From the NCBI GenBank assembly GCA_951406725.2, contig OX597830.1:26722001-26786000 (forward strand): a stretch of 64,000 bases of DNA. The letters are read 5' to 3'. Both the position numbers and the translations under genes were made by a program. How positions within the stretch are numbered: the stretch's first letter is position 1; each line of letters starts with the position of its first letter. Below the pieces are notes generated by a model that saw only the letters and a program-made list of their open reading frames with translations, had not been told where the DNA came from and did not search any database. Shown one piece after another: positions 3,016 to 61,790 of this stretch. Source of the stretch: Octopus vulgaris. Taxonomy: Eukaryota.

Positions 3016-44896
<41,881 letters not shown>

Positions 44897-53768: not shown

Positions 53769-54167
53769 TGTTTATACTAATCTCTAATATTTAACTGGCA
53801 CTTAGTATGATCTAATGAACTCAGAATATAAAATTCCAGAATAAATACTGCATTGCTTTTTTGCCGATTAAATCAGCTCACCGCGGATTAAAGTTTCTTT
53901 GTGTTACGTGTGTGAAGCAAACGTGATATGGCTGACTAAATCAATTCCAGTTCTTGGTTTGTGAATATTTTATTATCAATCCTTGAAAGTTGTTGGAGCA
54001 TTAAATCATCATCGATTGGAAAATAAGAGCAGAACGTTCAAAGGGAGGTAATTAAGGACTGAAAACTAAAATGACTACGAAGTACCGGAATGTAGAAAAT
54101 ATGTGTAAATCACAGCCGTCCTACGTTCATTCATTTATAGACCGACACATACGGCTTATAGGTTCGT

Positions 54168-55236
<1,069 letters not shown>

Positions 55237-56014
55237 ACACACACACACACACACGAGTAAGCATATAAATGCAAAACAACATAGAAAAACATATGGTAAA
55301 TTTTGGGAAGTATACCCGCATGGGTTTCAATGAGAAAAAATGAAAACCTTCGGGGATTTTTTTTTTTTTTTTGCGTGGAATCAAGTACCCTGACTTCATA
55401 ATGTGCCGCAAACCCCTTACTTTTGTTTGGAAAAAAAGGGGTGGCTGGGAAACCGTTTCCCCTTTACTCAGAATCATTGGAAAATTTTTTTGTTGTTGAA
55501 TGACTTACGGTGACCTCCTAATAAGTCACAAAACGCTTATTTTTATCCGGAAAAGTAGGGTGGGATGGGATGGAAACCTCGGAAATTTTACCCACCCACC
55601 ATTTTCCCGAGAAAAATATATTTTTGGTGTTTCTTTCTTTACCCTTATATAATAGATAATATTTTGCAGAAATACGTTTTCGAGTGTGGAGATTACATAA
55701 GAGTGACAATTGTTACCACTTGTCGTTTATTTTTCAAGTCTGGTGTGTATTTTATCGATTTACGCCGAACCGCTAATTTACGGTAAACAGACCAACACCG
55801 GTTATTGGGCGTGTTGTGATAAGCACAAAGATACGTACATGTGTACATGCATACACACAAACATTGAAAAGAATAAGTGAAAATGCTAAAGTTATAAAAA
55901 TTAGTGGTAACGAAGTCTGGGCACGAGAGATAAAGAATGATACAAAATTCTTCTAAAATGAATGTTAGTGTGTGTGTGTGGGGTGTATGTGTGGGGTGTG
56001 TGAAACAAGTAAAA

Positions 56015-56191
56015 GTATACAGTTCTATATTTAAGAGATGAGGAATTATGTACATTATTTACATTCGACGGATATTTGTCCTCATCTTGTTTGTTGTTAA
56101 CACAACATTTCGACTGATATAGCCTCCAGCCTTCTTCAGGTGTCTTGGGGAAATTTCGAACCTGGGTTCTCATTTCTAAGGTATTTTTTGA

Positions 56192-56244
<53 letters not shown>

Positions 56245-56283
56245 GTTCGATTCCAAGCAGTGACCTGAACAATAACAACAACA

Positions 56284-56317
<34 letters not shown>

Positions 56318-56469
56318 TATAAATAACATCGAAAAATACCTTTGGAATGAGAACCCAGGTTCAAAATTTCCCCAAGACACTTGATGAAGGCTGGAGGGTA
56401 TATCAGCCGAAATGTTATGTTAACAACAAACAAGATGAGGACAAATATCCGTCGAATGTAAATAATGTA
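56015..56469. mobile_element. Palindromic tRNA-head/hammerhead element, copy B
   Basis: ~150-bp highly similar inverted arms plus (TTA)n/(TAA)n; the centre keeps only the B-box remnant GTTCGATTCC; hammerhead motifs at ~56097-56144 (-) and ~56376-56421 (+). Confidence 0.8.
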
Positions 56470-56784
56470 AGTAAAAGTATGATATTAAAACAAAATATCT
56501 TTTCCATACTTCTTAAAATCACTGGATATATTAATCCCAGATTGCAGAATAGATTTTAAATGGTATCGTGTGTTTCAGGGGTGCTTTTGGGTCTTTACTC
56601 TCTTTACATTACGAGTCAATTAATAGGTCGATAATACTGACTAACCCCCTCCCCTAAAAATTATTGGTCTTGGGTTAAAATCAGAAACAATTATTCGAGT
56701 ACGACCCGACCTTCAATATCTTGGTGTCGAGGAGGTTTTTATCTCTTAATCTCTAAATGTTATGAAAATAGGGCCATGATTTAA

Positions 56785-57307
56785 AATGGACGGATAGGTC
56801 TCCTCACCTTGTTTGTTGTTACCACAACTTTTCGGTTGACGTACTCTCCAGCCTTCATCAGGTGTTCTAATGGAATTTCGAACCCAACCCTTTATTTGGA
56901 TAATGAGGCACTCTGTTCTCATTCCTAAGGTATTCTTTTTTTGCTGATTTTATCATTTGTTGATATTGTTTCTCAAGTCCCAGCCTGGAACTGAACTCAG
57001 AATCCGAGGGTTAGTAGCCCGTGCTCTTATCCACTACGCTATATGCCCGTAGGGATATCTCAGGTAGGGGCTTGAGAAATAATATTAACAAAAAATAGCA
57101 TCAGCAAAAAAAACAAAAAAACTTAGGAAAGAAAGCCGAGTACTCCATTAGTCAAATAAAGAGTTGCGTTCGAAATTCCACCAGAACTCTTGATGAAGGC
57201 TGGAGAGTAAATCGGCCGAAACGTTGTGGCAACAATAAAGTGAGGACATCTATCCGTCCATTGTTAATAATGTACAAATTCCTCATCTTTATAATATAGA
57301 ATAGTAC
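56785..57307. mobile_element. Palindromic tRNA-head/hammerhead element, copy C
   Basis: Inverted arms; tRNA-like head on - (~56976-57048); hammerhead motifs at ~56820-56866 (-, CTGATGA..GAAA) and ~57185-57230 (+, TTGATGA..GAAACGTT). Confidence 0.78.
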
Positions 57308-61614: not shown

Positions 61615-61790
61615 TCAATATGTGACCCCGTGTGTACCGTTGGCGATTTTTTTCCTCTGTCTTCCCTTCTCGGGATCTTTCCTTCTTCTATGTTTCCGAC
61701 GAAGAGCTCCGCTCGAAACGTTAAACCCCCCTTCTTCCCTTCTTTCCTGAGCGTCCAATTATTTGTTCCACGTCCTCGCGTTGTGTTTTT
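61615..61790 (+). mobile_element. Second copy of the same Penelope-like LTR fragment, hammerhead at 61692-61726
   Basis: Near-identical to the reverse complement of 38185-38355; GUUU-CCGACGA-A-GAGC(ucc)GCUC-GAAACGUU-AAAC, with core U4 changed to C. Confidence 0.7.

What the first reader, a model, noticed from the sequence alone, without database searches (positions are those of the whole stretch)
56015..57307. Palindromic element family with a tRNA-like Pol III head at the apex and a hammerhead ribozyme motif in each arm
Seen: three related ~420-520-bp fold-back elements (18435-18848, 56015-56469, 56785-57307). Each arm carries consensus GACAC-CUGAUGA-A-GGCUG(10 nt)CAGCC-GAA-ACGU-U-GUGUU reading outward, so both strands encode a hammerhead. 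Between the arms is a tRNA-like head with an A box, a GGG-CT-ACT-AA-CCC anticodon-like arm and a B box; copy B keeps only the B box. Established: minimal type I hammerheads with palindromic stem III are typical of Penelope-like element pLTRs and retrozymes, and schistosome SM-alpha links a Pol III repeat to a hammerhead. Inference: this is a Penelope-mobilised, Pol III-driven self-cleaving SINE or retrozyme that integrates as an inverted dimer. A read-through RNA would be rod-like with ribozymes of both polarities, superficially like a viroid. I know of no description of this architecture in cephalopods but cannot search. Each individual copy has some core or stem decay.
Basis: partly seen in the sequence, partly recalled or inferred. 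Interest (0 to 1): 0.85.

Follow-up and report, generated by a model that had tools for sequence, protein, structure and literature searches.

The report
Penelope retrotransposon ends with tRNA promoter
These fold-back repeats are the end repeats of a Penelope-type retrotransposon inserted head to head, an arrangement already described with its ribozyme motif; the unusual part is a tRNA-like sequence at the start of each repeat, which likely serves as an RNA polymerase III promoter and would let the repeat spread like a SINE.

Summary
The three fold-backs, the hammerhead motif and the tRNA-like head are real. They are not a separate SINE or viroid-like dimer. Each arm is the terminal repeat (pLTR) of a Penelope/Poseidon-type retrotransposon found in the same genome: pLTR, 835-codon RT plus GIY-YIG frame starting inside the pLTR, pLTR. 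The head is the 5' part of one arm, not an apex. Head-to-head pairs carry the known Penelope signature: a ~33-nt tail on exactly one side in 39 of 44 pairs and on both in none; target duplications of about 9-16 bp in 27 of 44 (control 10 of 300). No arm in the window keeps an intact ribozyme, though the family majority does. What I found no description of: the pLTR begins with a tRNA-derived A/B-box head; 34 of the 43 copies that reach it stop at its first bases; the 2,662-nt unit has no T4 run (P about 0.03, post hoc); 14 related elements from other animals show no such head. Pol III transcription and cleavage are untested. Verdict: new variant of a known kind.

The parts
18437..18604 (-). 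Copy A, left arm: 5'-truncated pLTR (starts in the A-rich/AAT tract), short 3' end, decayed hammerhead (G8 to A, stem II broken)
18605..18849 (+). Copy A, right arm: full pLTR from the first base of the head to the short 3' end; a third subtype (6 nt longer than type B after the ATG, in frame)
18605..18682 (+). Copy A tRNA-like head: decayed A box 18619-18629, anticodon-like arm 18640-18652, B box 18662-18673
18762..18805 (+). Copy A right hammerhead motif, core broken (G12 to A, deletion after stem III)
56007..56018 (.). Copy B target-site duplication, left copy (12 bp)
56018..56242 (-). Copy B, left arm: pLTR truncated in the (AAT)n tract, carrying the ~33-nt tail (56018-56050)
56099..56144 (-). 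Best-preserved hammerhead motif in the window: invariant core intact, wobble pairs in stems II and III
56243..56469 (+). Copy B, right arm: pLTR truncated at the B box (56245-56254), (AAT)n tract, ORF start region, hammerhead 56376-56421 (C3 to U, stem I mismatch), short 3' end
56469..56480 (.). Copy B target-site duplication, right copy (12 bp)
56775..57055 (-). Copy C, left arm: full type-C pLTR; head 56976-57055 (A box 57031-57041, anticodon-like arm 57008-57020, B box 56987-56998), ATG at 56922, hammerhead 56821-56866 (stem II and III mismatches), short 3' end
57059..57306 (+). Copy C, right arm: type-C pLTR truncated just after the B box, hammerhead 57185-57230 (C3 to U), tail 57275-57306

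Best explanation
The elements are head-to-head pairs of solo terminal repeats (pLTRs) of a Penelope/Poseidon-type retrotransposon, likely copied by that element's RT-endonuclease from an RNA that likely starts at the tRNA-like head, which would act as an internal Pol III promoter. Shown: the ~275-nt unit (head, A-rich/AAT tract, ATG, minimal hammerhead, two alternative 3' ends ~33 nt apart) flanks an RT plus GIY-YIG frame in the same genome; the frame starts 131 nt after the head begins and ends 23 nt before the next head. Inferred mechanism: the enzyme cuts both strands of an AT-rich target about 9-16 bp apart and primes reverse transcription from each nick at an internal site of the RNA, one strand at the short end and the other at the tail end. 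Each cDNA runs at most ~240-275 nt before it reaches the RNA's 5' end, and the two cDNAs are joined head to head, often through the 12-nt near-palindrome at the 5' end or in the AAT tract. This gives an inverted pair with a tail on one side and a target duplication. Because priming is internal, the 5' pLTR of a full-length RNA and the RNA of a solo pLTR would both yield the same short product, so the pLTR behaves as a built-in SINE. The hammerhead is the ordinary PLE minimal type, predicted to cut only as a dimer or with protein help; the copies in this window are old and decayed.
For: Endonuclease C-terminus directly upstream of the head in 25 of 30 loci found with a query that stopped short of the head (24 of 29 without the query locus). 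pLTR-ORF-pLTR copy L151/L154 and ORF running on past the tail in L145, L152, L133, L140, L136, L132. 835-codon majority frame from 55 segments; 51 protein relatives, most listed with PF00078, PF28514 and PF26215; the alignment matches telomerase and group II intron-like RT structures weakly; quick tree places it apart from the genome's two Neptune-type elements. Subtype indels after the ATG are +6 and +27 nt, both in frame. Tail on one side in 39 of 44 pairs, both sides 0, neither 5; 17 of 17 in the set whose query lacked the tail; duplications scoring 9 or more in 27 of 44 against 10 of 300 mismatched controls. Arms are of the same subtype in 41 of 44 pairs and share more non-CpG variants than cross pairs (permutation p 0.0045 and 0.013). 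5' ends: 34 of 43 segments that reach the head start stop within 10 nt of it, 11 at one base. Head aligns to the genome's own tRNA genes, best tRNA-Arg, z 8.3-9.6, with tRNA-like A-to-B spacing. Internal initiation at two sites bounding the tail, on both strands, was shown in vitro for anole Poseidon (PMC11167929, parts 1-2 of the text read).
Against: No direct evidence of Pol III transcription or of cleavage. Two RNA-seq runs of a coded organism (about 6% read) gave both directions about equally and no place where many molecules begin or end; such libraries are a poor test, and the signal fits passive read-through. The 5'-end peak sits on a palindrome, which could stop or redirect the RT without being a start site; 9 of the 109 5' ends were corrected by hand from the BLAST map. 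The T4 depletion is weak and post hoc: P 0.027 by synonymous shuffle, 0.078 and 0.19 by di- and trinucleotide shuffles of a shorter version, and G4 runs are also absent. Parent tRNA is unsettled: only 20 genes of 6 isotypes were compared, and Thr and Ala also scored z about 8 against the type-B head. No stem II covariation between types B and C. Copies A and C show no target duplication, and A has no tail. No ORF-bearing copy examined had an open frame over 338 codons.
Confidence: 0.68

Rival explanations
1. Same element, but the tRNA-like segment is a passenger: a tRNA or SINE fragment captured once between the stop codon and the pLTR. Transcription is by Pol II from a pLTR promoter or by read-through, and short copies arise only from internal priming in the 5' pLTR or from RT stalling at the palindrome.
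For: Pol II-type motifs (TATA, Inr) and 5' palindromes are reported for rotifer Penelope pLTRs (PMC3846280, passages). The protein must be translated, which Pol III RNA does poorly (established knowledge). RNA reads show no strand or start preference. The cloverleaf is not kept.
Against: The 5'-end peak lies 13-14 nt upstream of the A box, where a Pol III start is expected (spacing recalled, position). Both boxes fit the recalled consensus in types B and C although the two heads differ at several positions. No T4 run from the head to the next head.
Confidence: 0.3
2. The inverted copy is made by self-priming: the first cDNA (or an antisense template) folds back at the 5' palindrome and is extended, rather than by two nick-primed cDNAs.
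For: Self-priming on an antisense template was proposed for head-to-head Penelope structures with junction palindromes (PMC3846280, passages). Several junctions centre on the 12-nt palindrome, and L008 has only a short inverted stub there.
Against: Many pairs have a gap or a different truncation on each side, with no palindrome at the joint. Simple fold-back copying of one cDNA does not by itself explain a partner that ends ~33 nt beyond the first copy's 3' end in 39 of 44 pairs.
Confidence: 0.2
3. One reading: an independent Pol III SINE or retrozyme that borrowed a Penelope end, self-cleaves, and integrates as a dimer with viroid-like ribozymes of both polarities.
For: Short copies far outnumber ORF-bearing ones: 7 hammerhead arms and no ORF-body hit in 400 kb of arbitrary sequence; only 9 of 109 segments extend upstream of the head. 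Schistosome SM-alpha joins a Pol III promoter to a hammerhead (PMC6765202, passages).
Against: The head is part of ORF-bearing copies too, so no separate element is needed. Single and tandem copies exist; truncations vary. Retrozymes are tandem arrays (bioRxiv 10.64898/2026.07.22.740005, part 1 of 5 read); only 1 of 28 arm-B loci is tandem. Only 15 of 152 instances keep core, stems and the ACGU palindrome.
Confidence: 0.08
4. A non-autonomous DNA transposon (MITE or foldback) with long terminal inverted repeats.
For: Fold-back shape and a flanking direct repeat in copy B.
Against: Ends are unequal, duplication length varies from about 9 to 16 bp, inner ends are variably truncated, and the arm is the 5' end of an RT-endonuclease frame.
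Confidence: 0.01

Closest known systems
Penelope/Poseidon-clade Penelope-like elements (anole PAc, rotifer Pen2/Pen3, Drosophila virilis Penelope)
   Same: pLTR-ORF-pLTR; ORF starts inside the pLTR near the hammerhead; RT then C-terminal GIY-YIG; inverted 5'-truncated copy; 30-40-bp tail on one side; short variable target duplications; palindrome at the inverted joint; solo pLTRs (PMC11167929, PMC3846280, PMC8557442).
   Different: The pLTR begins with a tRNA-derived A/B-box head; pLTR-only pairs dominate; the unit has no T4 run. The endonuclease motif reads CVY...YKG here, as in its nearest relatives P0001 and P0003.
Minimal type I hammerheads of metazoan PLEs
   Same: Core CUGANGA...GAAA, extra base before stem II, G-C first pair, short stem I, palindromic 15.2-16.2; pairs of motifs 100-700 bp apart on opposite strands were noted in Schistosoma (PMC4209133, parts 1-2 read).
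   Different: None of substance; activity untested here.
Cassandra, Helenus and Ajax (TRIMs with 5S- or tRNA-derived Pol III promoters in their LTRs)
   Same: A small-RNA-derived promoter-like segment inside the terminal repeat of a retrotransposon (PMC10886601, passages).
   Different: Those are non-autonomous LTR elements with PBS, PPT and fixed 4-5-bp duplications; here the segment lies in the repeat of the protein-coding element itself, and the element is a PLE.
tRNA-derived SINEs (octopus OK, OR1, OR2; SINEBase definition)
   Same: Under 700 bp, tRNA head with A and B boxes, 3' part recognised by a partner RT, many copies.
   Different: The partner is a PLE, head and body both belong to the autonomous element, insertions are mostly inverted pairs. 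OR1 is listed as a CORE-SINE (PMC4824008, passage); I could not compare sequences with OK, OR1 or OR2.
Schistosome SM-alpha/Sj-alpha and animal non-LTR retrozymes
   Same: Short non-coding repeat with a type I hammerhead; Pol III promoter in SM-alpha; PLE origin proposed for retrozymes.
   Different: Those are tandem head-to-tail repeats processed to monomers or circles; this family is mainly inverted or single, with a minimal hammerhead and no evidence of processing.

Membership tests
Penelope-like element (EN+) | Single ORF with RT and C-terminal GIY-YIG endonuclease | tested here: met
   835-codon majority frame; relatives carry RT and PLE-associated domains; weak match to telomerase RT structures. 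The local Pfam copy gave no hit on two fragments.
Penelope-like element (EN+) | pLTRs flanking the ORF, ORF start inside the pLTR | tested here: met
   L151/L154, L145; ATG 131 nt after head start; in-frame subtype indels.
Penelope-like element (EN+) | Inverted 5'-truncated copy and 30-40-bp tail on one side | tested here: met
   39 of 44 pairs one-sided, 0 two-sided; loose ends pile at both 3' ends in four public runs.
Penelope-like element (EN+) | Short variable target-site duplication | tested here: met
   27 of 44 against 10 of 300 controls; absent in window copies A and C.
Penelope/Poseidon clade | RT groups with Poseidon, no CxxC linker before the endonuclease as in Neptune | tested here: inconclusive
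   Quick tree separates it from two Neptune-type elements and groups it with unlabelled relatives including an anole protein; no labelled Poseidon reference was in the tree. No CxxC linker seen.
Minimal type I hammerhead ribozyme | Conserved core and stems I-III | tested here: met
   Family majority; 69 of 152 instances keep the core, 29 also the stems, 15 also ACGU; stem II varies with pairing kept in 14 related loci from other animals.
Minimal type I hammerhead ribozyme | Self-cleavage after the NUH triplet | not testable with these tools
   No read-end pile-up in RNA-seq, an unsuitable library type; monomer folds are not better than shuffles.
tRNA-derived SINE | Head derived from tRNA with A and B boxes | tested here: met
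   Alignment to genome tRNAs z 8.3-9.6; box consensus recalled; not detected by ARAGORN default or Rfam.
tRNA-derived SINE | Transcribed by Pol III from the internal promoter | not testable with these tools
   Indirect only: 5'-end peak, no T4 run.
tRNA-derived SINE | Non-autonomous element distinct from its partner, mobilised by a LINE | tested here: not met
   Whole unit is the pLTR of the autonomous PLE.
Non-LTR retrozyme | Tandem repeats with a hammerhead in each unit | tested here: not met
   1 of 28 arm-B loci tandem.
Non-LTR retrozyme | Abundant circular or unit-length RNA | tested here: inconclusive
   One 'goes back 55' joint with 23 and 10 reads, no unit-length joint among the rows shown (98 joints not shown).
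DNA transposon / MITE | Equal terminal inverted repeats and fixed-length duplication | tested here: not met
   Unequal ends, variable duplication.

The most novel reading that the evidence does not exclude
A protein-coding retrotransposon whose template RNA is made by RNA polymerase III: a Poseidon-type element captured a tRNA gene as the promoter of its terminal repeat, purged T4 terminators from its whole 2.66-kb unit, and thereby turned its own pLTR into a Penelope-mobilised SINE with tens of thousands of copies.
Probability: 0.22. Interest if true: 0.82.

Novelty: new variant of a known kind. Interest (0 to 1): 0.5.

Why it matters
The fold-back and ribozyme are explained by known Penelope biology, so the viroid-like reading falls away. 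Two things remain useful. First, a tRNA-type promoter inside the terminal repeat of an autonomous Penelope element would be the PLE counterpart of Cassandra/Helenus and a route to SINE-like amplification without a LINE partner; annotation pipelines would probably file these copies as SINEs or MITEs. Second, the family gives a large natural record of how PLE insertions are finished, an open step in the mechanism: tail on exactly one side in 39 of 44 pairs with a 9-16-bp duplication predicts two nick-primed cDNAs starting at different sites, which can be tested with the existing in vitro Poseidon system.

Tried and rejected
Rfam and ARAGORN: no hammerhead or tRNA hit; minimal hammerheads and degenerate heads fall outside these models. 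A young 781-codon Neptune-type family found through PF01541 is not the partner: no similarity to arm or head. Local Pfam on two ORF fragments: no hit. Folding of single hammerheads: no better than shuffles. Run search: no RNA holder listed on record, no evidence either way. RNA-seq lay: both directions, no start or end pile-up; not a suitable test of Pol III or cleavage. ARAGORN at lowered threshold on related loci was noise. First-look candidate counts (1940, 2171, 2352, 360) are not copy numbers and were not used as such. The careful tree did not finish; the quick tree is reported. Earlier findings of this scan: nothing. SINEBase supplement could not be read, so identity with octopus OK, OR1 or OR2 is untested. 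Repbase and Dfam could not be searched.

Full report
Observation. The three fold-backs are at 18437-18849, 56018-56469 and 56775-57306 and are related to each other. The hammerhead motif and the A box, anticodon-like arm and B box are there as described. Rfam and ARAGORN do not report them.

The unit. Searches of the genome with arm B and arm C gave 30 loci each, one of them the window's own in each set. Mapping shows one ~275-nt unit: tRNA-like head, A-rich or (AAT)n tract, body with hammerhead, and two alternative 3' ends about 33 nt apart. Of 28 other arm-B loci (L030 overlaps L023 and was left out), 21 are head-to-head pairs, 6 single, 1 tandem. The head belongs to one arm; the partner is usually more truncated.

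The unit is a pLTR. Locus L070 has the C-terminus of a GIY-YIG endonuclease directly upstream of the head. A search with that coding stretch, ending short of the head, gave 30 loci; 25 have the head right after it. A search further upstream gave copies with the unit on both sides of the frame (L151/L154) and copies in which the frame continues past the tail. The majority of 55 segments gives a 2,662-nt repeat unit with an 835-codon frame that starts 131 nt after the head begins and ends 23 nt before the next head. The arms therefore encode the first ~50 residues, and subtype indels after the ATG are +6 and +27 nt. Protein relatives number 51, most listed with RT and PLE-associated domains; the nearest full-length one (P0003) has a homologous N-terminus across the hammerhead. 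A quick tree sets the family apart from the genome's Neptune-type elements; assignment to Poseidon rests on domain order and unlabelled neighbours. The family is old: long segments are 81-95% identical to the majority, and no copy examined has a frame over 338 codons.

Insertion signature. In 44 inverted pairs with both outer ends, the tail is on one side in 39, on neither in 5, on both in none; in the 17 pairs found with a tail-less query it is one-sided in all. Flanking direct repeats scoring 9 or more occur in 27 of 44 against 10 of 300 mismatched controls, length about 9-16 bp; copy B has a 12-bp duplication, copies A and C none. Both 3' ends also show as loose-end piles in two RNA runs and in contigs of two other coded organisms. 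Arms are the same subtype in 41 of 44 pairs and share slightly more derived variants than cross pairs (p 0.0045, 0.013), but most differences are private, so they decayed independently. This is the known Penelope pattern: inverted truncated copy and 30-40-bp tail (PMC8557442, passages), inverted pLTRs with 8-10-bp duplications, junction palindromes and solo pLTRs (PMC3846280, passages), opposite-strand minimal hammerheads 100-700 bp apart (PMC4209133, parts 1-2 of 4), and internal RT initiation at two sites bounding the tail, on both strands (PMC11167929, parts 1-2 of 4).

The ribozyme. The majority is a complete minimal type I hammerhead in 95 type-B and 54 type-C instances (3 unassigned), with decay mostly at CpG and variation at the free position 7; stem II is identical in the two types, so there is no covariation inside the family. 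Of 152 instances, selected with at most 6 mismatches, 69 keep the core, 29 also the stems, 15 also the ACGU palindrome. In 79 loci of related elements from metagenome contigs, 14 show the same core with different but paired stem II sequences. No arm in the window is intact. Such motifs cleave poorly and as dimers (PMC4209133; PMC6765202, passages), and an inverted pair cannot put two sense copies on one RNA. An RNA started at the head reads outward through one arm, so the viroid comparison does not hold.

The head. Its majority aligns to tRNA genes of this genome, best to tRNA-Arg (z 8.3-9.6 against shuffles; 20 genes of 6 isotypes; Thr and Ala close behind), with A and B boxes spaced as in those genes (box consensus recalled). 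Among 109 hammerhead-bearing segments (9 corrected by hand), 43 reach the head start; 34 of them stop within 10 nt of it, 11 at one base, and 9 run further upstream; another 38 stop in the A-rich tract. This edge is what an RNA 5' end would give, and it lies 13-14 nt before the A box, but it coincides with a 12-nt near-palindrome that could also cause it. The unit has no run of four T on the sense strand (14 runs of three); expected 2.9 by synonymous shuffle, P 0.027; the Neptune frame has 9 against 6.5 expected. Other shuffles gave P 0.078 and 0.19, and G4 runs are absent too, so this is a hint only. None of the 14 related hammerheads has a B box or a tRNA score above background within 260 nt upstream, so the head looks lineage-specific. 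RNA-seq of a coded organism shows the family on both directions with no start or end pile-up, which neither supports nor excludes Pol III.

Abundance. In 400 kb of arbitrary sequence there were 7 hammerhead arms at 4-5 sites, 5 of 8 blocks empty, and no ORF-body hit. My arithmetic puts this at roughly 30,000 sites, with a range of about 8,000-80,000.

Mechanism. Shown: identity with the pLTR, two 3' ends, one-sided tail, duplication, 5' edge. Inferred: Pol III start at the head; double nicking and internal priming at the two sites, one per strand; joining of the two short cDNAs head to head. Rivals: passenger tRNA fragment with Pol II transcription (0.3, mainly a rival for the promoter step); self-priming fold-back (0.2, a rival for the joining step); independent SINE or retrozyme dimer (0.08); DNA transposon (0.01).

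Novelty. Ten literature searches listed no paper describing a tRNA-derived promoter in a PLE pLTR or a PLE-mobilised SINE; most hits were seen as listings only, and the library lacks most subscription papers. The closest precedent is Helenus/Cassandra in non-autonomous LTR elements (PMC10886601, passages). The Octopus vulgaris annotation lists 190 Penelope-like families and mentions no hammerhead in its supplement (PMC13282606, passages and supplement search). Passages of PMC5786205, PMC8967140, PMC7229834, PMC4824008 and PMC3531059 added nothing on this. Repbase, Dfam, the SINEBase supplement and Ohshima and Okada 1994 (reference listing only) could not be checked, so the family may already carry a name. 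Verdict: known architecture, new variant in the head; interest 0.5.

Noticed in passing
window 61621-61783 (+) and 38193-38355 (-); also L047:2620-2771: A second, unrelated repeat family with an intact-looking PLE-type minimal hammerhead (core CUGACGA or CCGACGA, stem II GAGC/GCUC, GAAACGUU); the copy at 38279 has the canonical core.
   Followed up: partly
L051-L054: A young Neptune-type PLE family with many 781-codon open frames, preceded by a separate upstream frame of 360-480 codons and followed by a tandem-repeat 3' region; a candidate hammerhead lies at L052:5737.
   Followed up: partly
L012, L015, L019, L022, L027; G000:C16 block near 40026500-40030300: The (AAT)n tract inside the pLTR is often interrupted by insertions, several with the same terminal sequence, suggesting a separate AAT-targeting element.
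   Followed up: no
L110:1420-2250: RNA runs list 13 A>G places against 5-6 in the two contig sets; inverted pLTR pairs would form long double-stranded RNA and could be editing substrates, but differences are relative to one diverged copy and no matched DNA run was laid.
   Followed up: no
L093:1975-2050: A different tRNA-headed SINE is inserted at the very start of the pLTR head in this copy.
   Followed up: no
window 54056-55250: Long compound trinucleotide array (TAC/TGC/CTG) of about 1.2 kb.
   Followed up: no
window 41998-42450 (-): Degenerate RTE-like retrotransposon coding fragment interrupted by a microsatellite (family label recalled).
   Followed up: no
window 8145-8226: An 82-nt near-perfect hairpin formed by two inverted copies of another repeat.
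   Followed up: no
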